Virus record (IMG/VR): IMGVR_UViG_3300045988_139474
Span: 1 to 64,000 of that record
From: a virus
DNA: 64,000 nucleotides
Direction: 5' to 3' (one strand)
In this document: positions 12,021-53,330 of the stretch, one piece after another
Layout: each line of letters starts with the position of its first letter
How positions within the stretch are numbered: position 1 is the stretch's first letter
Translations under genes and position numbers: made by a program
The notes under the pieces: generated by a model
Database searches by the model: none
Seen by the model: only the letters and a program-made list of their open reading frames with translations
What the model was told of the DNA's origin: nothing

Positions 12021-12030
12021 AAATTTTTAG

Positions 12031-41247: not shown

Positions 41248-42444
41248 TTACACTTTCTTGCGAACCATCTTATCAAACATTGGCGCCAACAACATAGCTT
41301 GAACGCGTGCAGCGTTGTATGGCTTATTAGTCTTAGCCAAGTCAAAGTAGTAGCGTGCAGCATCCTTAACAGAACCGCCGAAAACAGGGGATTTCTGAGC
41401 CAGATAGGTCTTAGCACGCATATTCAGCGCAACGCCGTTAACAATAACGCTCAACAGGTCTTTGGCTGATACTTTCTTGCCTTGCAAGTAGTCACCCAAA
41501 GCTTTCAGGCCGTCTCGATTCGTTGCAGCTTCTTTCAAGGCTTTGCCCTTAGATTGTTTCGATTCAGACAGAACCCATTTGATAGCATCTTCAACGGTGG
41601 AATAACCGCTGATTGCTTTCATGGCTGCTTGAACCTCTTTCTGAGCTGGGCCAATCTTGACGGTGCTTGAAATCAGGCCTTTAATCGGCTTGCCGTTGTT
41701 AGTGTCTTCAGCCTTAACGCCTGAATAGACGTGGGAAGCACTAACAGTATGGATACCTGCTTTCAAGATTTCCTCAACCTTGTCGGAAACCTCAAACCAT
41801 TCTTTCGGCGTTTCATTACCCAACAACTCTTCAACATCCAAGCCTGAGCCTGTTTGTTGCATAGCGCGTTTTGAGTTTGCGCCAATAGTATTGATGGTAG
41901 CGTCACTCGAAGCTCGAACACGCATGCCTGGGCCAGAACCAATCAGGAGATAGGTTGACAAGACGATAGCACCGTCATGGCCGACTTTAGCGTACAATTT
42001 CTTGAGTAAGTCAACCAGTTCATACTCTTTCTCCGTATCAACTTGAAGATTGCCGGTCACGAACATACCCTTGTCCAGATTCAAGTCAATCAGGCTATCC
42101 AGGTTGACGCTTGAGATGTCCTCATCGTCAATCTCTGAGCCTAAGTTCAGCTCAATGCCTGGATAGTCACCAGCACGTGAGTAGAAGTTGCGCGCCAAGT
42201 TCATAGCAGCCTCTTTACTCATGTACATGCGATACTCATAGTACAAGGCTTCAACAGGGTTTCGGGCTTCCTGAGCCAGTTTCTCATAACGCTTGCGCGC
42301 TTGGAGATAACGTTTCTTGCCTTCAGGTGTCGACATGTACTTATTCATCGTGTCAATCATCTCAGGCGAAAACATCTTATCAAAAGAGGCACTCTCACCA
42401 AACTTTGCAGCTTGAGCGATTGCACCCTTTAGTCTTTCAGTCAT
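41248..42444 (-). CDS. hypothetical protein (398 aa) followed by its own strong terminator
   Basis: Long ORF on the coding strand with no recognisable motif. Hairpin plus T-run at 41195..41236. Confidence 0.75.
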   Translation of the reverse strand: MTERLKGAIAQAAKFGESASFDKMFSPEMIDTMNKYMSTPEGKKRYLQARKRYEKLAQEARNPVEALYYEYRMYMSKEAAMNLARNFYSRAGDYPGIELNLGSEIDDEDISSVNLDSLIDLNLDKGMFVTGNLQVDTEKEYELVDLLKKLYAKVGHDGAIVLSTYLLIGSGPGMRVRASSDATINTIGANSKRAMQQTGSGLDVEELLGNETPKEWFEVSDKVEEILKAGIHTVSASHVYSGVKAEDTNNGKPIKGLISSTVKIGPAQKEVQAAMKAISGYSTVEDAIKWVLSESKQSKGKALKEAATNRDGLKALGDYLQGKKVSAKDLLSVIVNGVALNMRAKTYLAQKSPVFGGSVKDAARYYFDLAKTNKPYNAARVQAMLLAPMFDKMVRKKV

Positions 42445-43147
42445 TGTTGTCCTTTCGGGCTAAGACATCCAAGGCCGTCTCAATCAAAGCGATTCTGGCT
42501 TCTCGTGAGAATATGCCTGCGGCTGTATTAGCCTCATTCAGTACCAGCACTGAGAACAGGTTGCCTACTGTAATCAAATCAGCCGTGCAACCGTAAACAG
42601 CAATGGTCTGGTTGGTTATCGGATAGTTTTGGTTATACATCGCCAGAGCAGCCCGCACTTGAGATGAAAGCGTTGCAGCATAAGCAGCATAGTAGGCAGG
42701 TGAGCTTACTCGCATTCCATCATCTTCAGCCTTCTCAAGTCTTGGGGCAATCATAACCAACAGGTCAGACAGTCTCAAGCTATCGGAGGCCAATTGACTC
42801 AACTCATTGTCCTTTTCAATATCTGCATTGAACGGAGCGTTATGCATGCTGTAATAAGCAAGGCTATCAAACACGCTCCTGTCCGATACAAAACCTGAGC
42901 CGAAATTGCGGAACAGCTCATAGCGATTCTTGATTAGCAACTCTTGGAACGCTATGCCCTTTTCAGGTTCATTGGCTGCTAATCGTAAAATGTCCTGATG
43001 CGTCTTAGTGCCTTCAGGCATATGGTCTCGACTAGCGAAGCGCGCAACAGGCACGCCATGCTTCTCCGACCAATCAGTCATCAGTGTCGTCTTTCCTGCT
43101 CCGTGTGAGCCGCAGATAACGACCTTAAAATCCTTGTAATTTTTCAT
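42437..43147 (-). CDS. P-loop NTPase, candidate (deoxy)nucleoside monophosphate kinase
   Basis: Walker A VICGSHGAGKTTL near the N-terminus. 236 aa. Overlaps both neighbours within the nucleotide-metabolism operon. Confidence 0.55.
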   Translation of the reverse strand: MKNYKDFKVVICGSHGAGKTTLMTDWSEKHGVPVARFASRDHMPEGTKTHQDILRLAANEPEKGIAFQELLIKNRYELFRNFGSGFVSDRSVFDSLAYYSMHNAPFNADIEKDNELSQLASDSLRLSDLLVMIAPRLEKAEDDGMRVSSPAYYAAYAATLSSQVRAALAMYNQNYPITNQTIAVYGCTADLITVGNLFSVLVLNEANTAAGIFSREARIALIETALDVLARKDNND

Positions 43148-43706
43148 ATAAATAATTTTCCGTTAAGAAAGCCTCACCAATAGCCAGCAAGTCTTTATCC
43201 AGCATCTGGTATTTCTTGAATGTTGTCTCTTGAATCTTCGCTACATTAGCCCAATCAAATTCACCGTCTGGTGTCTTGTCCTTGTAGCCTCGCAAATTAA
43301 GCTCTTCTACAATCTCATGCTCAACCGCCAATAAATCGGCTAATTTGACGATGAACTTGGTAACATCAGATACTTCAGACACGCCTAAGTCAGCAAGCAC
43401 CTTGTCCTCAATAACGCCCAAGGCCTTAACCAAATCAGGGTTTTCTCGTTTGACTACATACTTAACATCGCCAGTAACGACTTCAGGCAAATCATGACTT
43501 GCAGCATACTGGACGATTTCAAACTTCAAGTCATCCGTGAACGTGATACCGTGTTGGGCATAGAAGTCGATGATATCAAGGCAGATAGCCACTACCTCAG
43601 CATGGTGCTGAGATAAAGAACGGCGGTGTGCTCGAACGTTAACACCAGACCAACGGTCAACGTGATGAGAGGCTTTTGTTAAATCGAAGAAATTGTTGTA
43701 AGTCAT
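43125..43706 (-). CDS. HD-domain phosphohydrolase (YfbR-like 5'-deoxynucleotidase)
   Basis: H...HD...D metal ligands: SQHHAEVV...AASHDLPEVVTGD. Confidence 0.75.
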   Translation of the reverse strand: MTYNNFFDLTKASHHVDRWSGVNVRAHRRSLSQHHAEVVAICLDIIDFYAQHGITFTDDLKFEIVQYAASHDLPEVVTGDVKYVVKRENPDLVKALGVIEDKVLADLGVSEVSDVTKFIVKLADLLAVEHEIVEELNLRGYKDKTPDGEFDWANVAKIQETTFKKYQMLDKDLLAIGEAFLTENYLYEKLQGF

Positions 43707-43734
43707 GATATTTGTCCTATATGTAAACGATATG

Positions 43735-44892
43735 TTATTTGATTGGGCAGAACATGTCTGAGTGTTTAAAGGCTGTCTTCAAGTCAGAATTGACGATATT
43801 GTCTAAGGCTTCAAGCATCAATCCCTCTAACTCGGCCTTATCGCTTTCGGTTGTTGTCTTGGTCCAGATTTTACGAATCATTTCATAAGCAAGAATCGCC
43901 AGATAGTCCTTAACCAAAGAAGAATTTTGGAAGACAGTGCGATTAGTCAAGCCTAAGGCGATTTCCAGCAGCTTGTGAGGGACATGACGGTTGACGTACA
44001 AGAATGAAATTGCATTAGTCATGAACACCCTTACAGCATTGACGAATTCATCAGCTGTTTCAAACGGTGCAAGATAGCCCGTCAGATTATCCAGTCCAGG
44101 ATAAGACAAAGCAACCTTGTTATCCAAGACGGCCTTGAATTGCTTCTCAGCCAAATTATTGCCCTTCTCAACTGCTACTGGGTCGTTAGCCAGATACACG
44201 TGCAGATTGTTTGAGAACAGCGTGTAATTACCAATTCCCTCAGCAAATTCCTCAGGGTGTTTTTGGTGTAAGTACAGAGCAGTCAGTTCCTGCAGGAAGC
44301 TGAACTCAAAGAAGTTGATAGTAAACACACCATAGCTGACGTCATTTGACCGATTGATTACAGTCACATCAAGCTGTTTCGTCTCTTGATTGACGTCAAA
44401 GTACAGCATGTTATTACATGACCTGTCCTTGATATGCGGTGTTCCATGATTGAATTTGATAGCGTCATACGATTCTTGGGCTGGGTCAAAGATACTCAAG
44501 ACGGCTTGACGGGTCTGAGGGTTGGCCTCAAGATACTTGATAACGCCAGCCCATTGATTATGCTGATACAACATTGGGCCATAGGCTCTAGTCCATGTAA
44601 CGCCATCGTCTGAATACAAAGGTGCGCGGTGTAGGAAGTATTCCAACCAGCCTGAAATTACCTTAGAACCCGATAACACCCAAAAGGTCTCTGCAATAGC
44701 AGCAGCGATTGAGTTATTGCGTCCGTCAAGTGTAACATAACGCTCTTTTGGGTTAGTAACGCAGATTGTAGCTCGCTTTACGGCCTTAGTTGTACCCTTC
44801 TCAGATTGAGTTACTGCGCCGTGAGAGTCAATCAATCTCGCAGCTTGGATATACGCGTCATTTACATTCAACGCATTGATTAAGTGTGGCAT
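43735..44892 (-). CDS. thymidylate-synthase-fold enzyme (ThyA or dUMP hydroxymethylase homologue)
   Basis: Start moved to ATG 44892 (MPHLINAL; SD AAAGGA). Colinear with ThyA: RQAVLSIFDP, nucleophile Cys in DRSCNNMLYFDV (ThyA APCHAFFQFYV), INRSNDVSYGVFTINFF (QRSCDVFLGLPFNIAS, Asn kept), NNLHVY (GDTHLY). Confidence 0.8.
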   Translation of the reverse strand: MPHLINALNVNDAYIQAARLIDSHGAVTQSEKGTTKAVKRATICVTNPKERYVTLDGRNNSIAAAIAETFWVLSGSKVISGWLEYFLHRAPLYSDDGVTWTRAYGPMLYQHNQWAGVIKYLEANPQTRQAVLSIFDPAQESYDAIKFNHGTPHIKDRSCNNMLYFDVNQETKQLDVTVINRSNDVSYGVFTINFFEFSFLQELTALYLHQKHPEEFAEGIGNYTLFSNNLHVYLANDPVAVEKGNNLAEKQFKAVLDNKVALSYPGLDNLTGYLAPFETADEFVNAVRVFMTNAISFLYVNRHVPHKLLEIALGLTNRTVFQNSSLVKDYLAILAYEMIRKIWTKTTTESDKAELEGLMLEALDNIVNSDLKTAFKHSDMFCPIK

Positions 44893-44914
44893 GGTTATCC
44901 TTTCTGTTTGCCTG

Positions 44915-44978
44915 TTCATTATACACAAAGAACGATAAGGCCGAAAAACGCATTCACGAAGAAATTATTTTTCGGCCA
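44915..44978 (-). promoter_or_regulatory. class II promoter-like repeat (sigma70-like, perfect TATAAT)
   Basis: Minus strand GAATGCGTTTTTCGGCCTTATCGTTCTTTGTGTATAATGAAC, upstream of the ThyA-fold gene. Overlaps hairpin GGCCGAAAAA..TTTTTCGGCC, which may terminate dcd. Confidence 0.5.
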
Positions 44979-44983
44979 GTTAG

Positions 44984-45544
44984 CTAGACAGTAGAATCTT
45001 CTGAGAGGACAGCTGCCGATACGGCGTTGTACCCTTGATAGTGTCCGTTGTATCCGTCTGCTTCTAGCAACGGAATATCCAGCTGGTTGAACTTGAGCTG
45101 ACCTATACGCTGGCCAGCCTTCAACACGATAGGATACGGCGCGGAATTATACAATTCAAGAGTGACTGAGCCGTTGAAGCCTGGGTCAATGAAGCCTGCT
45201 AGTTGATGTTCCAACCCGACACGGCCTAATCTTGACTTCAAGCAAAAGTCAGCACATATATCCAGAGGGATTGAAAAGATTTCCGCAGTATGAGCCAGAA
45301 TGAACTGTTGAGGCTGGAGGGTGAATGTTCCTCCCTCCTCAAGCTTAACCCAGTCAAAGTATTCCTCATTGCCTTCCAGCCAGCTTTTCAACGGCTCGGA
45401 TTTACCATTGGGAACCATTAGCTCACAACCAAGAGTTACATCCAAGCTTGCAGGATTGATTAGCTTGCGCAGGTCAAATACATCTCTGTTCTCAACCAGC
45501 CCTTTAGTAATCAACCGCTCGATATTGTAGCGCGACAGAATCAT
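44984..45544 (-). CDS. dcd: dCTP deaminase family protein
   Basis: KSRLGRVGLEHQLAGFIDPGFNGSVTLELYNSAPYPIVLKAGQRIGQLKF parallels E. coli Dcd SSLARLGL...[34 protein letters not shown]. Confidence 0.85.
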   Translation of the reverse strand: MILSRYNIERLITKGLVENRDVFDLRKLINPASLDVTLGCELMVPNGKSEPLKSWLEGNEEYFDWVKLEEGGTFTLQPQQFILAHTAEIFSIPLDICADFCLKSRLGRVGLEHQLAGFIDPGFNGSVTLELYNSAPYPIVLKAGQRIGQLKFNQLDIPLLEADGYNGHYQGYNAVSAAVLSEDSTV

Positions 45545-45545
45545 G

Positions 45546-46280
45546 TTATTCTCCAGTCAGGATACGGTGAACGGACAAGGCTTGGAATTGAGCGTCAGTC
45601 AAAGCGTTATGAGCAGCATCTACAGGAGGTCTAACTCGCGCAATCTTAGGAAACAACAGGGTGGCTGTACGCATATCAAACACGTGATAGTATTCCCAAG
45701 GCACTTCATGACCTAGAATCTGAAGCCAAGCAGAAATGATTGAGATGTCGTATCCACTGCCATTTCCCCAGACACCAATATCCTCTGAGATAACATTAGG
45801 CTCACCAGCTGCTGCTTTCTCGCCAATCAGACGGCGCAAGGCTTCTTTGCACTTGCGGAAATACTCAAGGAATACCAATGCAGCATCTTCGTGCGACATT
45901 GTACCTGATAAAGCTTCGTTTCTGACTTCAGTATTCTGACTGCGCCACCAATTCAAGGTATCTTCATCATGAGTAAAGCGTGAGTCCAGAGCAGGTCTGA
46001 TTTTGATATAGCCGTCTGGAATCAGTCCTTTCAAGACACCCATAGTAGCAATACCAATAGTCAGAATCTGTACGCCATCTCTACCTTTCGATGGACGGCC
46101 TACAGTCTCTAAGTCAATCATCAAATGCGCAGAAGGCATCTTATTGTCGGTGAACTGTTTAAGGACTGGGACGTGAGCCAGACCAGGGTATTTCACCATA
46201 CCTTCAGGCGTTTCCCTGTCCTTTTCCGTGATCAGAATTTCAAGGCAAGCAGGGTCTTGGCTAGTGAACGAATGCAGCAT
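45546..46280 (-). CDS. DEDDh 3'-5' exonuclease
   Basis: Start moved to ATG 46280 (MLHSFTSQ; SD GGGAGGG). Exo I MIDLETVG, Exo II GNGSGYDISI, Exo III HNALTDAQ. Confidence 0.75.
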   Translation of the reverse strand: MLHSFTSQDPACLEILITEKDRETPEGMVKYPGLAHVPVLKQFTDNKMPSAHLMIDLETVGRPSKGRDGVQILTIGIATMGVLKGLIPDGYIKIRPALDSRFTHDEDTLNWWRSQNTEVRNEALSGTMSHEDAALVFLEYFRKCKEALRRLIGEKAAAGEPNVISEDIGVWGNGSGYDISIISAWLQILGHEVPWEYYHVFDMRTATLLFPKIARVRPPVDAAHNALTDAQFQALSVHRILTGE

Positions 46281-46665
46281 AAATAGCCCTCCCTGCGAAG
46301 TACAGACCAACCAGCAATACAACCGCAATAATCGCAATATGCAATTTGTTGAACTCGCTAGTGTCTAACAATCCTTTAGGCTGTTCCGCTTCGGTCTTCG
46401 CCAAGTCCTTCAAAGCCAATGCTGAACGGTACAAGTCATAGCTACCAGACAAACTGTCTGCGGCCTTACTGGCTGTAAAGCAATCGTAAGCCAGTTGAGT
46501 CAGGTCGGTAGGAATATTCAGTGTACGACCACTTGCGGAAAGCTCGGTCAGGCTTTGAATAGCAGCTTCTTCCAAGATAGTCCGATTAGCCTGCTTGAGT
46601 ACACGGTGAGCAGCCAATAACAAGGCAGCTTGCTCAGCGGTCAAATTTGGATACACAACAATCAT
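46261..46665 (-). CDS. hypothetical protein with C-terminal membrane helix
   Basis: 134 aa. C-terminus HIAIIAVVLLVGLYFAGRAIYAAFV. Confidence 0.65.
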   Translation of the reverse strand: MIVVYPNLTAEQAALLLAAHRVLKQANRTILEEAAIQSLTELSASGRTLNIPTDLTQLAYDCFTASKAADSLSGSYDLYRSALALKDLAKTEAEQPKGLLDTSEFNKLHIAIIAVVLLVGLYFAGRAIYAAFVH

Positions 46666-46668
46666 ATA

Positions 46669-47100
46669 TCACTCCTTGTCGGTAATCCCATACGGCAATA
46701 CAAGTCGAATGATTGCGGGTATAGGGATTCTAAACATCTTGTTGACCTCAGTCAAGTCCTCAGTCTTCACTAGCAGGTCAGTCGTTTTCGGGTCAACATC
46801 TACACGCAAGTTGCTTACGGCAAATGGTGTCTGTATTCTAGCTCGGTGAATTGGTGTTCCCAGTTCAGTCATCGGCTCGAATCGGCCTAACGCTTCCAAT
46901 GGCGCCAGCCCTAATCGGTTACAAGCAACCTTAGACAACAGCAATATCTCTTCTGCGTCTGCCTCAGGATACTCAGCAAAGATTTTGGGCAGTTCAAGGT
47001 CTGTATATTGCTTATCATCAATCTTTACAAGAAAGCCTGTTACTGTCTTCTCAAGCGTCATAGTGAAGCCTGTTGAACCGCAATTATCAAACTTAATCAT
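46669..47100 (-). CDS. hypothetical protein
   Basis: 143-aa ORF in a tight operon. Confidence 0.7.
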   Translation of the reverse strand: MIKFDNCGSTGFTMTLEKTVTGFLVKIDDKQYTDLELPKIFAEYPEADAEEILLLSKVACNRLGLAPLEALGRFEPMTELGTPIHRARIQTPFAVSNLRVDVDPKTTDLLVKTEDLTEVNKMFRIPIPAIIRLVLPYGITDKE

Positions 47101-47474: not shown

Positions 47475-47770
47475 GACTCAACCTTATCGAATCTATGGAA
47501 TTCTTCAAACCATACACCATAGTGTCGGGATATAAAGGCATGGTCAAACAACTCAACAAACTTCAAGTCTCTATTGACTTGCGGTTCATAAGGGCTGAAA
47601 TAACAGCTTCTCAAGCTCAGGTTGTCGTGATGGTTAAGGTATTTTCCAAATGGGATCATTTGAGCGGGCAGGCAATAAATAACCACATGCTTGCCTTCAG
47701 CTAAAAGGCGTTCAGCCTCTTGTAGCATGCGTTCTGTACGGCCTGTTTGTCTGTTAGGGTCTTGAAACAT
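47471..47770 (-). CDS. hypothetical protein
   Basis: 99-aa ORF in a tight operon. Confidence 0.65.
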   Translation of the reverse strand: MFQDPNRQTGRTERMLQEAERLLAEGKHVVIYCLPAQMIPFGKYLNHHDNLSLRSCYFSPYEPQVNRDLKFVELFDHAFISRHYGVWFEEFHRFDKVES

Positions 47771-47772
47771 AG

Positions 47773-48516
47773 TCAGTTCCTTTCATAAGGTTTTGCTTGA
47801 AAAACATAAACGATTGATTCTAACCAATCAACAATCTCAGGATTCAACGGCATAGTTTTGAATCCGCATCTGTATAGCATTGCGGAATCGTAGATTTCAA
47901 TAGGCAATCGGACAGGCAAAGTCTCAAAGCCTGCTTGAGCGGTTTTCATCTTATCAACAATTGCTTTTGAATTATGATAAGCCTGTTTCGTGCTGAATGG
48001 GACGGTCGGTTGCTCATAGCCGATGTCGTGACCAAACAATTCCTTATAGACGGCGTACATGTCGACACCTAAGGAATACGCACGCGCAATATAGACAGCT
48101 ACTGTATCTTGATTAGGACTCAGCGCAATCATCCCTTGAACATTCTTCGTACTGGCTGCTGCAATACAAGTAGCACCTTTCAAATTCCAGAAGTCGTCAA
48201 GCTGCGACACCTCTTTCCATTTCACATAAATATATGGCTTCTCAGCTGTAATCAATTTCAAGTTAAGGCAGACAATAGCAATCAGAAAAGTAAACGCAAT
48301 GCTGAAAGCAGCCCAATCACCCTTTAGGAGCGCGTTACAGGCCGTGAACGCAGAAATGATTGAAAACGATATGGCTGCTGGTTGTTCCCAGATAGCCGAC
48401 CAATCAATCCGCGTTTTCACGATACGCATTGACTTGAGTGAGACAGCATGGTTGAAAGTCTCAGCTGTAAGCAGCTTTCCAGTCTGCACGTCAAAAATAA
48501 ATTTGTTGATAGACAT
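47773..48516 (-). CDS. membrane protein
   Basis: 247 aa with two central hydrophobic helices (PAAISFSIISAFTACNALL / FSIAFTFLIAIVCLNL). Confidence 0.7.
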   Translation of the reverse strand: MSINKFIFDVQTGKLLTAETFNHAVSLKSMRIVKTRIDWSAIWEQPAAISFSIISAFTACNALLKGDWAAFSIAFTFLIAIVCLNLKLITAEKPYIYVKWKEVSQLDDFWNLKGATCIAAASTKNVQGMIALSPNQDTVAVYIARAYSLGVDMYAVYKELFGHDIGYEQPTVPFSTKQAYHNSKAIVDKMKTAQAGFETLPVRLPIEIYDSAMLYRCGFKTMPLNPEIVDWLESIVYVFQAKPYERN

Positions 48517-48563
48517 TTTGAGTTTCCTTTTTCACTGGGTCTAGTGCGAATTTTACTTAATGG

Positions 48564-49388
48564 TTATCTGAGAACATGATATCTTTTTATCTGCTTCAGA
48601 AATTCGATTTGTTCGGTTGTAGGCTTGAGTAATCCCATGAAAGCGGCACCGCTGTAGTAAAAATGCGAGTTGTGCCTACGGTCTCTTAAGGAATACTTGT
48701 CAAGAAGTACATAATAAAACACAGGATTAAAGTTTTTATCGAAAATACGCAATTTAGCTACATAGTCTCTTAACTCGATGGTGACTGGGAATAAAAGCCT
48801 ATCAGTAAAAGCACCCTTTTCAGCTACTTCAAATGTTCTTGAGTAATAAAACTTTTCGTCTGCAGTTAGCTTTAAAATGTCTTCGCCTGACCTGCTGAAA
48901 ACACAAATGCCATAATTGCCCAAGGCAGGCATTTGTGTTAAGTCTTTAGTGACTTCAAAAATCCTTATGTGAGTCTTGCCCTTAGTCGGCCAAGAAGTAT
49001 TCCTATGACTTTCATCCGCTTTAATAATGAGACCATTATAAAAGTTTTGAATAGAAAGGACTGAATAAGGGTCATCCGTCATATTTTGTATGAAGAATGC
49101 GCGTGGTTTCATTAGGCCTTGTATTAAATATTGATAATTGATATTAGCTGTAAGCTCAGGGTGTTTTTCTCTAATCTTATTAAAGAATTTAAGGTGCTTG
49201 CCGTGAACTGTTAAATCAAAAAATCCTCCTGAATAGTTTTCAGGCAAGTCTTTAGAATCAACTGTTGACCTGTCAAACTCAAAATTTTTTAATCTGGCGT
49301 AATCTACATCCAATTCGTATATTCTGGAAAGAACCCATGGAGTGTCTCTATCCGCAGCATCAACGCCGTCTATCTCAATACCATACAT
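48564..49388 (-). CDS. hypothetical protein (AT-rich module, gene 2)
   Basis: 274-aa ORF. Sampled 60-nt lines are 32-37% GC. 19-nt overlap with gene 1. Confidence 0.7.
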   Translation of the reverse strand: MYGIEIDGVDAADRDTPWVLSRIYELDVDYARLKNFEFDRSTVDSKDLPENYSGGFFDLTVHGKHLKFFNKIREKHPELTANINYQYLIQGLMKPRAFFIQNMTDDPYSVLSIQNFYNGLIIKADESHRNTSWPTKGKTHIRIFEVTKDLTQMPALGNYGICVFSRSGEDILKLTADEKFYYSRTFEVAEKGAFTDRLLFPVTIELRDYVAKLRIFDKNFNPVFYYVLLDKYSLRDRRHNSHFYYSGAAFMGLLKPTTEQIEFLKQIKRYHVLR

Positions 49389-49900
49389 CCTATTACCCCT
49401 CTTGATACCATATATGTGTCTGCCTGAACTACTCTTGAGCCTGTAACAGGTATTTTCGGGTAATCCTCAAGGATTTCTCTTTTTTGACCTGTATCAAAAA
49501 TTATATTGTATTCTGGATTGTTCCAATTAGCTCTATTGTAATTTGTAGGCAATAACACTTGCTGAGGGTGAACGAATCCTCCAAAATCGGTTTTCCCTAT
49601 CTCGTTGCTGTTAACATTAGCAAGTTTTAGTATCTTGAGCCCTTGCCCCTCGACATTCAGCACAAGATAATCCTGTATGCTATCATATTTCTCATTTAGC
49701 TGAAACGGATTAGAATATACAATGAACTTCTCACCAAATTCTATTTCAGGAAGATTTGGGACGATACCGACATCAATGACCTTCGGATACCCCCCCCGCA
49801 ACATTACAGATGAGACCGTAACAATATGCTCAGTTATTGATTTGATATCAAATTGATTTCTGAATTCTAAGTCAGAAAGATACAAGCCGTAGCCTGGCAT
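49370..49900 (-). CDS. hypothetical protein (AT-rich module, gene 1)
   Basis: 176-aa ORF preceded by a 456-nt non-coding structured region, not by a class I promoter. Confidence 0.7.
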   Translation of the reverse strand: MPGYGLYLSDLEFRNQFDIKSITEHIVTVSSVMLRGGYPKVIDVGIVPNLPEIEFGEKFIVYSNPFQLNEKYDSIQDYLVLNVEGQGLKILKLANVNSNEIGKTDFGGFVHPQQVLLPTNYNRANWNNPEYNIIFDTGQKREILEDYPKIPVTGSRVVQADTYMVSRGVIGCMVLR

Positions 49901-49951
49901 ATCTTTTCCTTTCTTAAAGTTTGAGATTGATTGAAAAAGATTTCCTCTTTA

Positions 49952-50058
49952 GGAATCGCCCTAACCCTGTTGCTAGCAGAAGCGTTGGAGAGTGAACGCT
50001 GACCTAGCATACTGCATGGAGGTAGGAGAGGTAATTGATACAAGGTCAAAGCGATTCC
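49952..50058. ncRNA. candidate structured RNA element (three nested helices); strand unresolved
   Basis: GGAATCGC 49952-59 pairs with GCGATTCC 50051-58. Inside it, TGCTAG 49971-76 pairs with CTAGCA 50004-09. Inside that, AGCGTT 49981-86 pairs with AACGCT 49995-50000. Confidence 0.3.
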
Positions 50059-50356
50059 GAAAAAGAACTGGTTACCATTATCCAGCGTCACTGAGCTTTC
50101 GCCATGACGGATTTTCTATACATTAAGTCTGGAGTGATAGTAGGCTTTATTTTACTTTGCGCCTACCAGACAAAGTTCAGGAGTCAACTTGCTCAGCACA
50201 GCCAGCTAGAAAATAGGCTAAACTAACAGGCTGCACTCAACAGGTTTAACTGTTGAAAAACAAAAGGAACTTAATATGCTAAAACAAGGCCAATATTACC
50301 ATTTATGTCTCCCGCATATTGGCGGACGGGATATGCAACCCCTTGCAGAAAATCAA

Positions 50357-50980
50357 TCAGCTACAGATTTCAGTCATCATAGCTTTATACAGCTGGTTTC
50401 TTTTGCGAACAGATTCAATTGAGTCGTTCATAAATACAGGATGTTTGTCGACAATTATTTCCGCAATTTCGCTCGGAGTTTTCGAACAAAATTCATAGTC
50501 AATCATCCTAGTATGACCGTCAACTACCAGATAGCTCTTGCCTTCTCCCCATGCAGACCATTTAAAGAAGTCACAATCTAGTCCGTCTAACAAATAGGCA
50601 TTGTCCTTGTCTTCAATGTAAAAGTATGTTATGCCTCTTCTCCCTCTAATAGGCAGATGCATCACAAAATACGGATTTACGCATGAATCTAACAAGGCCT
50701 TTGGCTCTACTGGAACTTTCTTGTAAGAAGCTCCCTCCATAAATACTACACCGACGAAGACGATAAGCAAACTCAGGCCAATTATTAGCAGCAACATAGC
50801 TTCAGGCGCAAATTGGGTTTTGGTAAAATACCAGCCTATCAAAACACAAGCTGCCATAATAACCCCAGCCCCTATGACCCCAGTATTGAGTACATACGTG
50901 TGCCATCTCGTTGAGGATTTGCTGTAATACGCTCGAAACTCGCCTGTTTGACGGTTCATTTTCAGTAGCGTATCAGTCAT
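50357..50980 (-). CDS. membrane protein
   Basis: Start moved to ATG 50980 (MTDTLLKMNRQ; SD GGAG; 8-nt overlap). Two hydrophobic helices, then a soluble domain. Confidence 0.7.
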   Translation of the reverse strand: MTDTLLKMNRQTGEFRAYYSKSSTRWHTYVLNTGVIGAGVIMAACVLIGWYFTKTQFAPEAMLLLIIGLSLLIVFVGVVFMEGASYKKVPVEPKALLDSCVNPYFVMHLPIRGRRGITYFYIEDKDNAYLLDGLDCDFFKWSAWGEGKSYLVVDGHTRMIDYEFCSKTPSEIAEIIVDKHPVFMNDSIESVRKRNQLYKAMMTEICS

Positions 50981-51563
50981 TGAGTGACTCCATGTATTTT
51001 GCAAACTCTTCTGAGTCGGAGCTTTGAGCAGGCTCAATCGCGTCATAGTATTTTGAAGTGCCCTCTACAGTCACGGACAATTCTTTGATAAACTCGTCAA
51101 CATCCATGTTAACATCACGGAAATTGTTGATTGAGATACCGGCAGAAATACGGCTTCGCTCAAATTTCAATTCGTCAATCTTCGCAAGGATTGAAGATTT
51201 TGATTCCTCCCAAGAGTCAATCTGGGATTGAATGCGTGCCAAGAAGTCTTGTTTCTTACCTAACAACACTTTAATGCGGAATGCTTCACGCGCTTTGCGA
51301 GGGTCTTTAGATTCAGCTGCGCGCAACTCTTGCTCCAGTCCTTTCAAGATACTTGTATGCTGCTTCACTTGTTCTTGAGTATCCGACTCAACGGACTTGA
51401 GTTGGGCTTGCTCGATACAAATGCTCTTGAGATGTTTATTCAGCTTGTCGATTTCACCCTGAATATACTGTTTCGCTGCGGAAGAATCAGAGCTAATCAT
51501 GTCCTTAACAGCACCGTTAGTTTTAGAAGTGAAAATGGCTTTTACAGCTTTAAATACGTTCAT
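50973..51563 (-). CDS. coiled-coil protein, possibly PspA/IM30-like
   Basis: N-terminus MNVFKAVKAIFTSKTNGAVKDM resembles PspA [22 protein letters not shown]. The rest is long heptad-rich helix. Confidence 0.4.
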   Translation of the reverse strand: MNVFKAVKAIFTSKTNGAVKDMISSDSSAAKQYIQGEIDKLNKHLKSICIEQAQLKSVESDTQEQVKQHTSILKGLEQELRAAESKDPRKAREAFRIKVLLGKKQDFLARIQSQIDSWEESKSSILAKIDELKFERSRISAGISINNFRDVNMDVDEFIKELSVTVEGTSKYYDAIEPAQSSDSEEFAKYMESLND

Positions 51564-51599
51564 TTGATATGTCTCCTGACTAGGTTGATAATAGGTAGC

Positions 51600-51631
51600 T
51601 TTAAATCTCGCTCACCAATTTTAATTTTTAA
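51600..51631 (-). promoter_or_regulatory. class I phage promoter motif
   Basis: TAAAAATTAAAATTGGTGAGCGAGATTTAAAG, upstream of 50973..51563. Confidence 0.55.
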
Positions 51632-51663
51632 GCTTTCCGCAAGAATCTTAGCGTTGAGACACT

Positions 51664-51834
51664 TTATGTCGCTTCGCGCAAGACTTTCAAGGCTGAAGCG
51701 TCAACATTGTAGCGTTTCAGCAACATCTTTTTAACAGATGACTTGCTAGGCAATTCATTCGGGTCAACTGTAATCTTGTCTTCAATCAGCTTTGCGCCTT
51801 GTTGAATCTTGAAATACCAAGTTTGAAACATCAT
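51664..51834 (-). CDS. hypothetical small protein
   Basis: Track ORF 51664..51915 overlaps the tRNA. Start moved to ATG 51834 (MMFQTWYF; SD GAGGAAG). Confidence 0.5.
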   Translation of the reverse strand: MMFQTWYFKIQQGAKLIEDKITVDPNELPSKSSVKKMLLKRYNVDASALKVLREAT

Positions 51835-51857
51835 GACTTCCTCAATCGTTATTAATC

Positions 51858-51935
51858 TGGTGGGTGCCGCAGGACTCGAACCTGTCTGCCTACCGTTTAT
51901 GAGACGGCTGCTCATACCTCATGAGCTTGACACCC
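51858..51935 (-). tRNA. tRNA with anticodon CAT (elongator Met or Ile2), CCA encoded
   Basis: Minus strand folds as a cloverleaf: GGGTGTC AA GCTC ATGAGGTAT GAGC A GCCGT CTCATAA ACGGT AGGCAG ACAGG TTCGAGT CCTGC GGCACCC A CCA. 7-bp acceptor, T-loop TTCGAGT. One A-C mismatch in the T stem, and A instead of U at position 8. Confidence 0.8.
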
Positions 51936-51981
51936 TCTGCTTAATCTGGTGCTTGGGATACTTTATCGCTCAAGCTATGAC

Positions 51982-52012
51982 TGTATATTCTGTTCACCAA
52001 TTCTAATTTTTA
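51982..52012 (-). promoter_or_regulatory. class I phage promoter motif driving the tRNA
   Basis: TAAAAATTAGAATTGGTGAACAGAATATACAG, ~45 nt upstream of the tRNA 5' end. Confidence 0.55.
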
Positions 52013-52028
52013 TGAATCGGCGAAATTT

Positions 52029-52406
52029 TCATTTCAAGTCCAATTCTTCTTTCACGCGTTTGACTACATCTGGAACAAAACCGTCCAAGACTTCAGCCGC
52101 ATCAGAAAGAATGTAAGTGTCAAAACGCATTTGCAATTCTTTCAAGGCCGTGCTAGTTTTGCGTTTACCGCCTTCTGAATTGAAAATATCAACCATTGTC
52201 TCTGCTACTGCTTGAGACAGATAGTAATTTGTCTGATGAATAGCACCCTCAAGGATTTCCATGCGGGTCTCATAGGCTTTAGTCTCAGCAATAACCTCAT
52301 CTCGTATTGCGTCTGGGATTCGTTCCAAGATAGCCAAAGCCAATTTGTTATCGGCGCATTCGGCTTCTCTACGAAGCTCCTCTAAAGTCATATTGCTGAA
52401 ATACAC
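52029..52406 (-). CDS. hypothetical protein
   Basis: 125-aa ORF behind class I promoter 52436..52466. GTG at 52406 or ATG 15 nt downstream. Confidence 0.7.
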   Translation of the reverse strand: MYFSNMTLEELRREAECADNKLALAILERIPDAIRDEVIAETKAYETRMEILEGAIHQTNYYLSQAVAETMVDIFNSEGGKRKTSTALKELQMRFDTYILSDAAEVLDGFVPDVVKRVKEELDLK

Positions 52407-52435
52407 GGTGTTTCCTTAAAAGTGCTATTCATAAG

Positions 52436-52466
52436 CTGATATTCCATCAGCCAATCTTAATTTTTA
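52436..52466 (-). promoter_or_regulatory. class I phage promoter motif
   Basis: TAAAAATTAAGATTGGCTGATGGAATATCAGC, upstream of 52029..52406. Confidence 0.6.
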
Positions 52467-52669
52467 ATTGACCACTTCTGCTCAAGAACTAAGGCGCACA
52501 GCCCAAGCATACGGTCGGTTGTCGTCTTGAGATAAACAAGTTTTCCGCTAGGATAAGCATACAAGTCACCTGTTTCTTGAATGCTTAACACTGTTGCTTG
52601 AATGCCGTATGAGTCAGACACTACTTGAGTGCCCTCTCGCAGTTCATCAATCCTTAGCATTGCCGTCAT
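52457..52669 (-). CDS. hypothetical small protein
   Basis: Start placed at ATG 52669 (or 52660), overlapping the end of the upstream gene. Its stop lies inside class I promoter 52436..52466. Confidence 0.5.
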   Translation of the reverse strand: MTAMLRIDELREGTQVVSDSYGIQATVLSIQETGDLYAYPSGKLVYLKTTTDRMLGLCALVLEQKWSIKN

Positions 52670-53330
52670 TGTGCTTGTAGAAGGCTTCATAGGCCTTGTA
52701 AACAGAATCAACGGTCACTTCGGATAACCCCTCAGCCAGACGCAAGGCTTGGGCGTTATCTTCAAGGCCGTTCACGAATTTGCGATATGTACCGTCATTG
52801 TAGCCGTTATTCTGGCGGAATCTGTTCAACGCATTCTTGACGACATATCGGGTGTACAACTCATCAAAACCCATTCCGATTCGTTGGCAAAGACGCAAAA
52901 ATTGCTTCACGGTATCGGGGCTTCGATTAATCATGGAATTGATGAACGGTGTAACATTCTTGTCGTATTCAGTATTGAGTTTGAGTGGCTTCTCTTCTAC
53001 ACCGTCAACCACAAATGCGATATGATGTCCCAACGGTCTCACGCGGTCTTCAAAGTCAAATTGCGCGGTCGGTCGGAATAACAACTCAGGCTCAATCAGG
53101 TCAGACAACAAGAAGTGCCAGATATCAACCAGTTCAGTCTTAGCATTCTCAATATCAATCTCCTGTTGCTTCCACCATTTGTAGCCTACTGATTCAAGGT
53201 ATTCACCTGTTTCAGCAATGATTGCATTAGCCCAAGAATTGCCCTTAGCATACCATTCTGCGCCCTGCGTTACAACATTGTTCTCGTGCTGCAATCGTAG
53301 CATCGTCAGCACTTTATTGAGTGTGTTCAT
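52647..53330 (-). CDS. all-alpha NTP pyrophosphohydrolase of the dimeric dUTPase family
   Basis: LQHENNVV...EWYAKGNSWANAIIAETGEYLESVGYKWWKQQ...ELVDIWHFLLS matches the dimeric dUTPase / dCTPase-type helical core. Confidence 0.7.
   Translation of the reverse strand: MNTLNKVLTMLRLQHENNVVTQGAEWYAKGNSWANAIIAETGEYLESVGYKWWKQQEIDIENAKTELVDIWHFLLSDLIEPELLFRPTAQFDFEDRVRPLGHHIAFVVDGVEEKPLKLNTEYDKNVTPFINSMINRSPDTVKQFLRLCQRIGMGFDELYTRYVVKNALNRFRQNNGYNDGTYRKFVNGLEDNAQALRLAEGLSEVTVDSVYKAYEAFYKHNDGNAKD

What the first reader, a model, noticed from the sequence alone, without database searches (positions are those of the whole stretch)
42437..53330. Gene set resembling the thymidine-replacement (5-hydroxymethyl-dU type) pathway
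Consecutive overlapping genes encode a dCTP deaminase (44984..45544), a ThyA-fold enzyme of 385 aa (43735..44892), an HD 5'-deoxynucleotidase (43125..43706) and a P-loop kinase-like protein (42437..43147). A dimeric-dUTPase-family pyrophosphohydrolase (52647..53330) lies nearby. The ThyA-fold enzyme retains the catalytic Cys and keeps Asn at the base-specifying position (FTINFF versus ThyA PFNIAS; dCMP hydroxymethylases have Asp there), so it should act on dUMP. The enzyme list parallels that described for SPO1-type phages: a dCTP/dCMP deaminase feeds dUMP, a ThyA homologue makes 5-hm-dUMP, a dedicated kinase phosphorylates it, and a dTMPase plus dUTPase/dTTPase exclude T. The same set could also merely boost dTTP supply. 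A large insertion relative to ThyA and the accompanying nucleotidase and kinase favour a modified base. Modified DNA would also fit the anti-restriction flavour of the region.
Basis: partly seen in the sequence, partly recalled or inferred. Interest (0 to 1): 0.7.

Follow-up and report, generated by a model that had tools for sequence, protein, structure and literature searches.

The report
Phage thymidine-replacement and hypermodification gene set
An uncultured human oral phage carries the enzymes that replace thymidine with 5-hydroxymethyl-deoxyuridine, and the same genome just outside the window carries the DNA kinase and transferases that modify that base further, so this is a new example of a known anti-restriction strategy.

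Summary
All five ORFs exist at the stated coordinates and match the stated families: dCTP deaminase, ThyA-fold enzyme, YfbR/DatZ-like HD hydrolase, P-loop kinase and dimeric dUTPase.

The ThyA-fold enzyme keeps the catalytic Cys and the uracil-specifying Asn. It is much closer to pyrimidine hydroxymethylases than to thymidylate synthases. Its best phage relatives come from phages whose thymidine modifications derive from 5-hmdU (ViI-like, PhiW-14, PaMx11/M6-like, SPO1-like).

The kinase is not a 5-hmdU DNA kinase. It has a deoxynucleoside/thymidylate-kinase fold and belongs to a small family that sits next to ThyA/HD genes in RP13, IME392 and metagenomic relatives.

The decisive evidence lies outside the window. 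The same 154-kb genome (human oral metagenome) encodes three further genes 12.6-15.8 kb beyond the window's right end: an amino-acid:DNA transferase, a 5-hmdU DNA kinase of type 2 and a clade-1 Pplase.

The cluster is therefore the pre-replicative half of a thymidine hypermodification pathway. It is neither a dTTP booster nor, most likely, a plain SPO1-type 5-hmdU genome.

The phage's DNA polymerase places it in the SP15/RP13-like clade of phages with modified T. Verdict: new member of a known kind, moderate interest. The final base is unknown.

The parts
44984..45544 (-). dCTP deaminase (186 aa). Inferred role: supplies dUTP from dCTP.
   Evidence: Pfam DCD 2.4e-33. TIGR02274 equivalog 118.9 bits, above its cut-off of 92.8. 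Kept at the same position in the distant relative L007.
43735..44892 (-). ThyA-fold enzyme (385 aa), predicted dUMP hydroxymethylase that makes 5-hmdUMP.
   Evidence: PF00303 3.3e-11 and phrog_3676 1.8e-72. Best PDB match is MilA, a CMP 5-hydroxymethylase: 3.9e-15 for the single protein, and 1.9e-28 for the family profile against 2.3e-11 for E. coli TS. C159, N193, E68, R181/S182/D184 and H231/Y233 align with E. coli C146, N177, E58, R166/S167/D169 and H207/Y209. Best phage hits are ViI-like Ackermannviridae (42-44%), PhiW-14 (38%), PaMx11/M6-like and SPO1-like phages. No pairwise BLASTP hit to E. coli ThyA.
43125..43706 (-). HD phosphohydrolase (193 aa), YfbR/DatZ-like. Inferred role: removes thymidine nucleotides, as a dTMP nucleotidase or a dTTP triphosphohydrolase.
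   Evidence: PF12917 39.4 bits against a cut-off of 25.9. phrog_7076 'dATP triphosphohydrolase' 2.2e-20. Best PDB matches are DatZ at 0.017 and YfbR at 0.071. An HD gene follows or flanks the ThyA homologue in L007, IME392 and RP13, and a different HD subfamily does so in PaMx11.
42437..43147 (-). P-loop kinase (236 aa) with a deoxynucleoside/thymidylate-kinase fold. Inferred role: 5-hmdUMP kinase.
   Evidence: AAA_28 1.8e-12 and no hit to PF18748. The family conserves GxxGxGKT, H50, D52, F67-Q68, D89-R90-S..D94..Y98, R146 and R218. The AF2 model has pLDDT 95.6. Foldseek best matches are deoxyadenosine kinases, AbmG, thymidylate kinases and the NadR kinase domain, with TM about 0.5. The family is small: 467 representatives at E<=1e-3 out of 1.84 billion. 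Homologues lie next to ThyA and/or HD genes in RP13, IME392 and L007.
52647..53330 (-). Dimeric (all-alpha) dUTPase-family pyrophosphohydrolase (227 aa). Inferred role: dUTP to dUMP, possibly also dTTP to dTMP.
   Evidence: PF08761 2e-22. Full-length match to C. jejuni dUTPase 1w2y at 6.4e-22. NF049964 scores 103 bits, below its cut-off of 300. A dUTPase/dCTP-pyrophosphatase-fold enzyme of the T-hypermodifying phage SH-Ab 15599 was shown to be a dTTPase/dUTPase that spares 5hmdUTP (PMC13458397). AG3 (ViI-like) also has a dUTPase_2 gene two genes after its ThyA homologue.
41248..42444 (-). Conserved 398-aa protein of unknown function. Its gene overlaps the end of the kinase gene by 8 nt. Whether it belongs to the pathway is undecided.
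   Evidence: No Pfam, PHROG or NCBIfam hit. Homologues are at the same position in L007 (32%) and in RP13 as ORF87, next to the RP13 ThyA homologue (30%, 1e-42). The AF2 model is unusable, pLDDT 39.5.
35266..38409 (-). Family-A DNA polymerase (1047 aa) of the SP15/RP13-like clade. Inferred role: incorporates 5-hmdUTP.
   Evidence: Best phage hit is the RP13 polymerase: 34.5% identity over 97% of the query, E-value 0. Next come Ab1-TPeters, Rhizobium RHph phages, EP_H11/IME392, phiLo and SP-15. Two papers describe this clade as belonging to T-hypermodified phages (PMC12686479; bioRxiv 10.1101/2025.03.26.645540).

Best explanation
The cluster is the pre-replicative, nucleotide-pool half of a thymidine hypermodification pathway in an uncultured ~154-kb phage from human oral metagenomes.

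Inferred steps in the window:
1. dCTP deaminase converts dCTP to dUTP.
2. The dimeric dUTPase-family enzyme makes dUMP, and may also destroy dTTP.
3. The ThyA-fold enzyme hydroxymethylates dUMP to 5-hmdUMP, using methylene-THF and water.
4. The dNK/TMPK-like kinase phosphorylates 5-hmdUMP. Host NDP kinase completes 5-hmdUTP.
5. The YfbR/DatZ-like HD hydrolase depletes dTMP or dTTP.
6. The SP15/RP13-clade polymerase incorporates 5-hmdU into DNA.

Inferred steps outside the window, in the same genome:
7. An HMUD2-type 5-hmdU DNA kinase phosphorylates the hydroxymethyl group in DNA.
8. An amino-acid:DNA transferase (clade-2 Pplase, with the ExxLC Cys/Glu motif intact) replaces the phosphate with an amine- or hydroxyl-bearing donor.
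9. A clade-1 Pplase paralogue has an unknown role.

Shown here: gene presence, family membership, conserved catalytic residues, the kinase fold, conserved gene order, and that both halves lie in one genome. Inferred: every substrate and product, and the identity of the final base.
For: - ORFs and family matches.
- ThyA homologue. It is closer to the hydroxymethylase MilA than to TS, with Cys and Asn retained. Its phage relatives are ViI-like, PhiW-14, PaMx11/M6-like and SPO1-like, all phages with 5-hmdU-derived bases (PMC5889632, PMC8989533).
- Kinase. It conserves the dNK/TMPK-type DRS and FQ motifs. Its high-confidence model matches deoxynucleoside and thymidylate kinases.
- Conserved gene order. 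In a relative with only 41-46% protein identity the order is exonuclease, dCTP deaminase, ThyA, HD, kinase, 394-aa protein, primase, helicase, PolA.
- IME392 has Pplase1, this kinase family, ThyA and HD as four adjacent genes.
- PaMx11, whose pathway was reconstituted in vitro, has an HD gene right after its dUMP hydroxymethylase.
- Same genome. L017 is the start of a 154,039-bp contig and is 100% identical to the window's own contig over their 5,380-bp overlap. It carries ADDT (62.6 bits), HMUD2 (39.2 bits) and HMUDK_hel/Pplase1 (144 bits), all above the Pfam gathering cut-offs.
- The transferase keeps E258 and C262, aligned with the glycine:DNA transferase PaMx11 gp46.
- The published pre-replicative scheme lists the same enzyme classes: deaminase, dUMP hydroxymethylase, dTTPase, dTMPase and dNMP kinase (PMC8989533).
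- The polymerase belongs to the T-modified SP15/RP13-like clade.
Against: - No enzyme was assayed and no virion DNA was analysed.
- No sequence signature is known that separates hydroxymethylases from methylating TS. The call rests on relatedness and genomic context.
- The HD and kinase substrates are inferred only. E. coli co-expression in PMC13458397 produced a hypermodified T without a dedicated dNMP kinase, so the kinase may be dispensable or may do something else.
- The HMUD2 match is modest (E 6e-10) and its Walker A motif is atypical (GISATGKG).
- No tailoring enzyme (PLP-dependent, radical SAM, FAD-dependent or acetyltransferase) was seen next to the transferase.
- About 50 kb of the genome, mostly the late region, was not examined.
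Confidence: 0.75

Rival explanations
1. Plain SPO1-type replacement. T is replaced by unmodified 5-hmdU, and the kinase and transferase genes outside the window are inactive or modify only rare sites.
For: The enzyme list in the window matches the classical SPO1/phi-e scheme on its own (PMC8989533). The HMUD2 match is weak and its P-loop is atypical. No tailoring enzymes flank the transferase. Full-length contigs assemble readily from short-read metagenomes.
Against: All three post-replicative genes pass their Pfam cut-offs. They are conserved at 87-100% nucleotide identity in related contigs and keep intact reading frames. The transferase has its Cys and Glu. According to PMC8989533, virion DNA of SP10, PhiW-14, M6 and ViI, all of which use these enzymes, contains no 5-hmdU.
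Confidence: 0.1
2. SP-15/YerA41-type modification. The base carries a long linker with phosphate and sugars, built partly at the nucleotide level. The AAA_28 kinase or the 398-aa protein would take part in that chemistry.
For: The polymerase belongs to the SP15/RP13-like clade, in which SP-15, YerA41 and Carin-5 have phospho-glycosylated T (PMC12686479; bioRxiv 10.1101/2025.03.26.645540). The kinase family and the 398-aa protein are shared with RP13.
Against: No glycosyltransferase or sugar-nucleotide gene was found in the 64 window ORFs screened at E<=1e-3, nor in the pre-computed Pfam tables of the flanking loci. In YerA41 and Carin-5 such genes sit next to the polymerase gene. Genomes of 138-156 kb assemble from many Illumina metagenomes, whereas YerA41, RP13 and Carin-5 DNA resisted standard sequencing. 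This second point is a weak inference.
Confidence: 0.1
3. Ordinary nucleotide metabolism. The ThyA homologue is a true thymidylate synthase, and the set only boosts dTTP supply for a canonical-T genome.
For: The Pfam and NCBIfam models that match are named thymidylate synthase. Many phages carry dCTP deaminase, dUTPase, ThyA and RNR genes for this purpose.
Against: The NCBIfam TS equivalog scores are far below their cut-offs (45.7 against 327). There is no BLASTP hit to E. coli ThyA. The nearest relatives are hydroxymethylases from phages with modified T. The genome encodes enzymes whose only known substrate is 5-hmdU in DNA, and no TET/JBP alternative source of 5-hmdU was seen.
Confidence: 0.04
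4. PBS2-type uracil DNA. dCTP deaminase, a dTMP nucleotidase and a dUMP kinase would fill the pool with dUTP.
For: dCTP deaminase, an HD nucleotidase candidate and a nucleotide kinase are the classical PBS2-induced activities (own knowledge, not checked against a paper here).
Against: A dUTPase-family enzyme and a ThyA homologue are present. The polymerase clade is reported to carry an active uracil-DNA glycosylase domain (bioRxiv 10.1101/2025.03.26.645540); that was not tested for this protein. 5-hmdU-specific enzymes are present.
Confidence: 0.01

Closest known systems
Thymidine hypermodification pathways of phages ViI, M6, PaMx11, PhiW-14 and SH-Ab 15599: 5-hmdU, then 5-HMUDK, then amino-acid/amine:DNA transferase (PMC5889632, PMC8989533, PMC13458397)
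   Same: It has a dUMP hydroxymethylase homologue (42-44% identity to ViI-like enzymes), a dimeric dUTPase-family enzyme, a 5-hmdU DNA kinase family member (HMUD2, the Pfam family for the second kinase type), a clade-2 Pplase/AADT with the conserved Cys and Glu, and a clade-1 Pplase. An HD gene follows the hydroxymethylase gene, as in PaMx11.
   Different: dUMP comes from a dCTP deaminase, not a dCMP deaminase. The two halves of the pathway lie about 30 kb apart. No HMUD1-type kinase was found, and no PLP, radical SAM, FAD or acetyltransferase tailoring gene lies next to the transferase. The nucleotide kinase belongs to a different, small AAA_28/dNK-like family. The donor molecule and the final base are unknown.
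SP15/RP13-like phages: RP13, IME392, EP_H11, YerA41, Carin-5, SP-15 (PMC12686479; bioRxiv 10.1101/2025.03.26.645540)
   Same: The polymerase clade is shared (34.5% identity to RP13). The gene order HD, kinase, primase, helicase, PolA matches RP13. Pplase1 is 41% identical to RP13 ORF120. IME392 has the same kinase, ThyA and HD families. The literature reports dCTP deaminase, dUTPase and a ThyA homologue in all members of the clade.
   Different: No glycosyltransferase block lies near the polymerase gene. The genome assembles from ordinary metagenomes. An HMUD2-type DNA kinase is detectable by Pfam here, whereas the preprint reports that no 5-HMUDK could be detected in RP13, EP_H11 or IME392. 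The source is a human oral metagenome and the host is unknown.
SPO1/SP8/phi-e type 5-hmdU phages of Bacillus
   Same: The classes of pre-replicative enzyme are the same: deaminase, dUMP hydroxymethylase, dTTPase/dUTPase, dTMPase and a dedicated nucleotide kinase. SPO1-like hydroxymethylases are detectable homologues at 29-32% identity.
   Different: Those phages stop at 5-hmdU and use a dCMP deaminase. This genome adds the post-replicative kinase and transferases.
DatZ of the Z-genome cyanophage S-2L, an HD dATP triphosphohydrolase that excludes a canonical nucleotide
   Same: The HD protein's best PDB match is DatZ (E 0.017) and its best PHROG is named dATP triphosphohydrolase (2.2e-20). The logic of removing the canonical nucleotide that competes with the modified one is the same.
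   Different: The similarity is weak and YfbR, a dNMP nucleotidase, scores about as well. The target here would be a thymidine nucleotide, not dATP. No activity data exist.

Membership tests
dUMP hydroxymethylase (hydroxymethylase branch of the ThyA superfamily) | ThyA fold with the catalytic Cys and the dUMP phosphate- and ribose-binding residues | tested here: met
   PF00303 3.3e-11. C159, R181/S182/D184, H231/Y233 and E68 align with E. coli C146, R166/S167/D169, H207/Y209 and E58.
dUMP hydroxymethylase (hydroxymethylase branch of the ThyA superfamily) | Asn (uracil), not Asp (cytosine), at the base-specifying position (E. coli N177) | tested here: met
   N193 aligns with N177 of E. coli TS and with the Asp of the CMP hydroxymethylase MilA.
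dUMP hydroxymethylase (hydroxymethylase branch of the ThyA superfamily) | Closer to known hydroxymethylases than to methyl-transferring TS | tested here: met
   The family profile scores 1.9e-28 against MilA and 2.3e-11 against E. coli TS. TS equivalog models score far below their cut-offs. Top phage hits are ViI-like, PhiW-14, PaMx11/M6-like and SPO1-like. No BLASTP hit to E. coli ThyA.
dUMP hydroxymethylase (hydroxymethylase branch of the ThyA superfamily) | Product is 5-hmdUMP plus THF, not dTMP plus DHF | not testable with these tools
   Needs an enzyme assay.
[quoted passage not shown] | Match to the HMUDK profile beyond the P-loop | tested here: not met
   No PF18748 or PF18747 hit at E<=0.01, whereas AG3 gp060 scores 3e-107. 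BLASTP and hhalign similarity is limited to the P-loop, 26 columns at 59% probability.
Deoxynucleoside / dNMP (thymidylate) kinase fold family - window kinase | Walker A motif, a DR(S/Y)-type motif, a base-contacting Phe-Gln or equivalent, and the matching fold | tested here: met
   GxxGxGKT, F67-Q68, D89-R90-S91, R146 and R218 are conserved over 38 family members. The AF2 model has pLDDT 95.6. Top Foldseek matches are dAK, AbmG, TMPK, dNK and the NadR kinase domain, with probability 1.0 and TM 0.4-0.57. The model has an extra C-terminal beta-meander at residues 177-203.
Deoxynucleoside / dNMP (thymidylate) kinase fold family - window kinase | Substrate is 5-hmdUMP | not testable with these tools
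   Inferred only from gene neighbourhood.
dCTP deaminase (TIGR02274) | Score above the curated equivalog cut-off | tested here: met
   118.9 bits against 92.8. Whether it also has dUTPase activity was not tested.
Dimeric all-alpha dUTPase (PF08761) | Full-length match to a solved dimeric dUTPase | tested here: met
   PF08761 80.6 bits against a cut-off of 22.9. C. jejuni 1w2y at 6.4e-22 over residues 7-219. dTTPase activity is not testable here.
YfbR-like HD 5'-deoxynucleotidase (PF12917) | HD metal-binding residues and the R-W substrate motif | tested here: met
   39.4 bits against a cut-off of 25.9. H34, H71-D72, D123 and R18-W19 were read from the sequence. The NCBIfam YfbR equivalog scores far below its cut-off (20.5 against 122), so it is not an orthologue of YfbR. 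Nucleotidase versus DatZ-like triphosphohydrolase activity is undecided.
Amino-acid:DNA transferase (clade-2 aGPT-Pplase, PF18724) - gene outside the window, same genome | Profile match above cut-off plus the conserved catalytic Cys and neighbouring Glu | tested here: met
   62.6 bits against a cut-off of 26.2. E258 and C262 (ExxLC) align with PaMx11 gp46 and gp50. The donor substrate is unknown.
5-hmdU DNA kinase type 2 (PF18747 HMUD2) - gene outside the window, same genome | Profile match above cut-off and a P-loop | tested here: inconclusive
   39.2 bits against a cut-off of 25, covering model positions 7-167 of 298. The Walker A-like motif GISATGKG is atypical. No PDB relative was found by phmmer.
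SP-15/YerA41-type phospho-glycosylated long-linker thymidine | SP15-like polymerase clade | tested here: met
   The best hits are RP13 and the other clade members. [quoted passage not shown]
SP-15/YerA41-type phospho-glycosylated long-linker thymidine | Glycosyltransferase and sugar-nucleotide genes near the polymerase gene | tested here: not met
   No such Pfam family was found among the 64 window ORFs screened, nor in the pre-computed Pfam tables of the flanking loci. About 50 kb of the genome was not examined.

The most novel reading that the evidence does not exclude
A lineage of ~150-kb phages, recovered in many human metagenome assemblies (oral where the source is named), carries a thymidine hypermodification that has not been chemically described. 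It would be installed by an HMUD2-type DNA kinase and two Pplase paralogues with no recognisable tailoring enzymes. It would be fed by two enzyme families with no assigned gene in this pathway so far. One is a dNK-like kinase with a C-terminal beta-meander, acting as the dedicated 5-hmdUMP kinase. The other is a DatZ-like HD hydrolase that excludes thymidine nucleotides, a T-specific counterpart of the Z-genome dATPase.
Probability: 0.3. Interest if true: 0.6.

Novelty: new member of a known kind. Interest (0 to 1): 0.4.

Why it matters
Phages with modified thymidine resist restriction enzymes and some other DNA-targeting defences, and they can be hard to sequence or amplify.

- This lineage was found in many human metagenome assemblies, oral where the source is named. 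Knowing that it carries the full pathway tells virome studies that it may be miscounted. It also offers a new set of DNA-modifying enzymes (kinase, transferase) for biotechnology.
- Two activities known only from classical biochemistry, 5-hmdUMP kinase and dTMPase/dTTPase, now have concrete candidate genes. These genes are conserved next to the hydroxymethylase gene in several phage groups and could be tested directly.
- The finding links the SP15/RP13-like polymerase clade to the kinase/transferase type of thymidine modification.

Tried and rejected
- Nucleotide search against GenBank phages. Megablast of the cluster gave no match. Sensitive blastn gave only a 185-nt stretch in RP13. The phage is not in the cultured-phage collection.
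- Kinase as the 'missing' 5-HMUDK of RP13-like phages: rejected. There is no PF18748 hit and the similarity is limited to the P-loop. The AG3 189-aa P-loop protein downstream of its ThyA homologue is not a homologue either.
- Word-index protein search gave only 3 kinase relatives and 1 relative of the 398-aa protein. The exhaustive search recovered the kinase family.
- Structure of the 398-aa protein. The near-single-sequence model has pLDDT 39.5 and was not used.
- tblastn of RP13 Pplase1 and AG3 5-HMUDK against the window and its two flanks found nothing. The genes lie further out and were found by walking through a related IMG/VR contig, then confirmed in the window's own genome.
- The first IMG/VR walk with a small flank protein failed.
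- phmmer of the transferase and the HMUD2 protein against PDB found no relatives.
- The window HD and PaMx11 gp52 HD are not detectably homologous beyond the HD motif.
- The host search with the YadA-like protein in genome contigs found nothing.
- No sequence motif could be found that separates hydroxymethylases from TS. The position of E. coli Y94 differs between the HMMER and MAFFT alignments.

Full report
**1. Observation**

The window is transcribed almost entirely on the minus strand.

| Coordinates | Size | Family evidence |
|---|---|---|
| 44984-45544 | 186 aa | dCTP deaminase; Pfam DCD 2.4e-33; TIGR02274 118.9 bits, above its cut-off of 92.8 |
| 43735-44892 | 385 aa | ThyA fold; PF00303 3.3e-11; phrog_3676 1.8e-72 |
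| 43125-43706 | 193 aa | HD hydrolase, YfbR-like; 39.4 bits against a cut-off of 25.9 |
| 42437-43147 | 236 aa | P-loop protein; AAA_28 1.8e-12 |
| 52647-53330 | 227 aa | Dimeric dUTPase; PF08761 2e-22; full-length match to C. jejuni dUTPase 1w2y at 6.4e-22 |

Only HD/kinase (23 nt) and kinase/next gene (8 nt) overlap. The other junctions have short gaps.

The N-termini of the RP13 and L007 homologues align with the ATG at 44892. This supports the 385-aa form of the ThyA homologue.

**2. The ThyA-fold enzyme**

Alignments to solved structures place C159 on E. coli C146 and N193 on E. coli N177. N193 also aligns with the Asp of the CMP hydroxymethylase MilA. The dUMP-binding residues R166/S167/D169, H207/Y209 and E58 are all conserved.

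The enzyme is far closer to a hydroxymethylase than to thymidylate synthase:
- The best PDB hit is MilA. A profile built from the window enzyme and its AG3, RP13 and IME392 homologues scores 1.9e-28 against MilA and 2.3e-11 against E. coli TS.
- The NCBIfam TS equivalog models score far below their cut-offs.
- There is no pairwise BLASTP hit to E. coli ThyA. Residues 51-217 agree with the PDB alignments.

In cultured phages the 536 tblastn hits are led by these groups:
- ViI-like Ackermannviridae at 42-44% identity
- PhiW-14 at 38%
- IME392
- PaMx11 and M6-like phages
- SPO1-like Bacillus phages

All of these groups carry 5-hmdU or bases derived from it (PMC5889632, PMC8989533).

The extra length is not one large insertion. 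It is a C-terminal extension of about 150 aa, and the ~350-aa homologues have a shorter one. Two short inserts are specific to this clade.

**3. The kinase**

It does not match the 5-hmdU DNA kinase profile PF18748, which AG3 gp060 hits at 3e-107. hhalign against that kinase aligns only the P-loop.

An exhaustive search found a small family: 467 representatives at E<=1e-3 and 32 at E<=1e-30, out of 1.84 billion proteins.

The family conserves GxxGxGKT, H50, D52, F67-Q68, D89-R90-S, D94, Y98, R146 and R218. A DR(S/Y) motif and a base-contacting aromatic/Gln pair are typical of deoxynucleoside and thymidylate kinases (own knowledge).

The AlphaFold model is confident (pLDDT 95.6). Its best PDB matches are deoxyadenosine kinases, the nucleoside kinase AbmG, thymidylate kinases and the NadR ribosylnicotinamide kinase domain, with TM about 0.5. 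The model has an extra C-terminal beta-meander. Viral matches tell the same story.

It is therefore a small-molecule nucleoside or nucleotide kinase.

**4. The HD enzyme and the dUTPase**

The HD protein has intact H..HD..D residues and the R-W motif. Its best PDB matches are DatZ (0.017) and the nucleotidase YfbR (0.071). DatZ is the dATP triphosphohydrolase that excludes A from Z-genomes. Its best PHROG is named dATP triphosphohydrolase. It could therefore be either a dTMP nucleotidase or a dTTP triphosphohydrolase.

The dUTPase-family protein is a full-length relative of dimeric dUTPases. In phage SH-Ab 15599 a dUTPase/dCTP-pyrophosphatase-fold enzyme was shown to hydrolyse dTTP and dUTP but not 5hmdUTP (PMC13458397). 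The same dual role is plausible here.

**5. Context and relatives**

The window is a stretch of ENA contig ERZ27263344:k119_126914 (154,035 bp), positions 22420-86419 in reverse complement. Identical proteins occur on contigs of 138-156 kb from many assemblies and in third-party-annotated 'Caudoviricetes sp.' MAGs. One of these is a 154,039-bp contig from a human oral metagenome.

The DNA polymerase is most similar to that of Ralstonia phage RP13 (34.5%). The next hits are Ab1-TPeters, the Rhizobium RHph phages, EP_H11/IME392, phiLo and SP-15. This is the SP15/RP13-like clade, described as belonging to T-hypermodified phages. All its members are reported to have a dCTP deaminase, a dUTPase and a ThyA homologue (PMC12686479; bioRxiv 10.1101/2025.03.26.645540).

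Gene order is conserved across relatives:
- RP13: HD, kinase, primase, a small ORF, helicase, PolA.
- A metagenomic relative with only 41-46% protein identity: exonuclease, dCTP deaminase, ThyA, HD, kinase, 394-aa protein, primase, helicase, PolA, RNAP beta'.
- IME392: Pplase1, this kinase family, ThyA and HD as four adjacent genes.
- PaMx11: an HD gene of another subfamily directly follows the dUMP hydroxymethylase gene. The PaMx11 pathway was reconstituted in vitro.

**6. The decisive evidence lies outside the window**

No transferase, DNA kinase, glycosyltransferase, PLP-dependent or radical SAM family was found among the 64 other window ORFs.

I walked upstream through a related IMG/VR contig that is 80-91% identical in nucleotide sequence. 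This revealed the order topoisomerase II B/A, ADDT (amino-acid:DNA transferase), HMUD2 (5-hmdU DNA kinase 2), HMUDK_hel (clade-1 Pplase), then RNR.

The same three genes are in the window's own genome:
- Protein P0244 lies on the 154,039-bp oral contig (locus L017).
- L017 is 100% identical to the window's contig over their 5,380-bp overlap.
- The scores are 62.6, 39.2 and 144 bits, all above the Pfam gathering cut-offs.
- Extrapolated to window coordinates the genes would lie at about 76,564-79,755, which is 12.6-15.8 kb past the right end of the window.
- The transferase keeps the ExxLC Glu/Cys pair, aligned with the glycine:DNA transferase PaMx11 gp46.

Pplase1 is 41% identical to RP13 ORF120, the gene the preprint calls aGPT-Pplase. 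The preprint states that no 5-HMUDK could be detected in RP13-like phages. Here an HMUD2-type match is detectable, although it is modest and its P-loop is atypical.

**7. Mechanism**

Best explanation, confidence 0.75:
1. dCTP deaminase and the dUTPase-family enzyme feed dUMP.
2. The ThyA homologue makes 5-hmdUMP.
3. The dNK-like kinase and host NDP kinase give 5-hmdUTP.
4. The HD enzyme, and perhaps the dUTPase-family enzyme, deplete thymidine nucleotides.
5. The clade-specific polymerase incorporates 5-hmdU into DNA.
6. After replication the HMUD2 kinase phosphorylates the hydroxymethyl group, and the transferase substitutes a donor molecule.

Gene presence, family membership, residues, the kinase fold, gene order and common genome were shown here. 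Every substrate and product is inferred. The final base cannot be predicted, because no tailoring enzyme flanks the transferase.

Rivals:
- Plain 5-hmdU, confidence 0.1.
- SP-15/YerA41-like glycosylated long-linker base, confidence 0.1. No glycosyltransferase genes were found in the parts of the genome examined, and the genome assembles readily from short reads.
- Ordinary dTTP supply, confidence 0.04.
- Uracil DNA, confidence 0.01.

**8. Novelty**

The pathway type is well described. The literature already notes the pre-replicative genes in this polymerase clade, and a public MAG annotation already names the Pplase1. This is a new member of a known kind.

Three things are modestly new:
- The pathway occurs in a phage lineage found in many human metagenome assemblies. 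145 IMG/VR loci encode relatives of one late-region protein.
- There are candidate genes for the 5-hmdUMP kinase and for the dTMPase/dTTPase, conserved next to the hydroxymethylase gene.
- The kinase/transferase chemistry is tied to the SP15/RP13-like clade.

**9. Limits**

- About 50 kb of the genome was not read. It is the late region, and a 2,260-aa ORF at its start suggests structural genes.
- The 398-aa conserved protein that overlaps the end of the kinase gene remains unexplained.
- The host is unknown.

Noticed in passing
window 41248-42444 (-): A conserved 398-aa protein with no family match. Its gene overlaps the end of the kinase gene by 8 nt. Homologues sit at the same position in L007 and, in RP13 (ORF87), directly next to the ThyA homologue. 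It may belong to the replication or nucleotide module.
   Followed up: partly
window 31228-34236 (-): A 1002-aa protein with RNA polymerase Rpb1 (beta'-like) domains 1, 2, 4 and 5, lying two genes downstream of the DNA polymerase gene. It is conserved in the distant relative L007. The phage seems to encode its own multisubunit-type RNA polymerase subunit.
   Followed up: partly
window 5360-6697 (-): A phage-encoded 445-aa protein with YadA head, stalk and membrane-anchor domains, that is, the architecture of a trimeric autotransporter adhesin. This is unusual in a phage. No relative was found in the genome-contig scan.
   Followed up: partly
window 296-1246 (-) and 1743-3533 (-): An actin-like protein (ALP_N plus MreB-like_C) and an NAD-dependent DNA ligase. 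One further screened ORF has an HHH_8 domain and may be a PolX; its position was not determined. Ligase plus PolX is the repair kit reported for the UDG-fused polymerase clade.
   Followed up: no
window 53346-54275 (-): An EcoRI-type N6-adenine DNA methyltransferase (PF13651, 1.7e-124) directly upstream of the dUTPase gene. It is a second, independent DNA modification. GAATTC is not depleted in the window (25 sites against 22.6 expected).
   Followed up: partly
window 45546-46337 (-): An Rv2179c-like 3'-5' exoribonuclease domain protein immediately upstream of the dCTP deaminase gene. It is kept at nearly the same position in L007, with an 89-aa ORF in between.
   Followed up: no
L006:1991-4156, L015:16178-19009, L013:9998-11695: The RNR large-subunit gene varies among close relatives. 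It is 721 aa with a faint intein signal in the window's own genome, 943 aa with an intein plus an HNH endonuclease in L015, and 565 aa with no intein in L013.
   Followed up: no
L006:1113-1382 (about 6.5 kb beyond the window's right end); L005:16212-16454: A Tad2-like (anti-Thoeris) gene upstream of the RNR gene. One relative also has a weak Lar-type restriction-alleviation hit. Together with the rIIA/rIIB-like genes (rIIB at window 61960-63105) this fits a counter-defence region.
   Followed up: no
L002:8940-12476 (Escherichia phage IME392): Pplase1, the AAA_28 kinase, the ThyA homologue and an HD (YfbR-like) gene are four adjacent genes. The two ORFs upstream (344 and 359 aa) have no Pfam hit. 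They may be diverged counterparts of the transferase and the DNA kinase.
   Followed up: partly
L008:1306-2418 and 10879-12159 (Ralstonia phage RP13): RP13 has a weak glycosyltransferase-1 hit (ORF112). It also has a gene annotated in the record as myo-inositol-1-phosphate synthase (ORF125). Both lie within a few kb of its Pplase1 (ORF120). They are possible clues to the unknown RP13 modification.
   Followed up: no
window 51858-51935 (-): A single tRNA-Met (CAT) gene.
   Followed up: no
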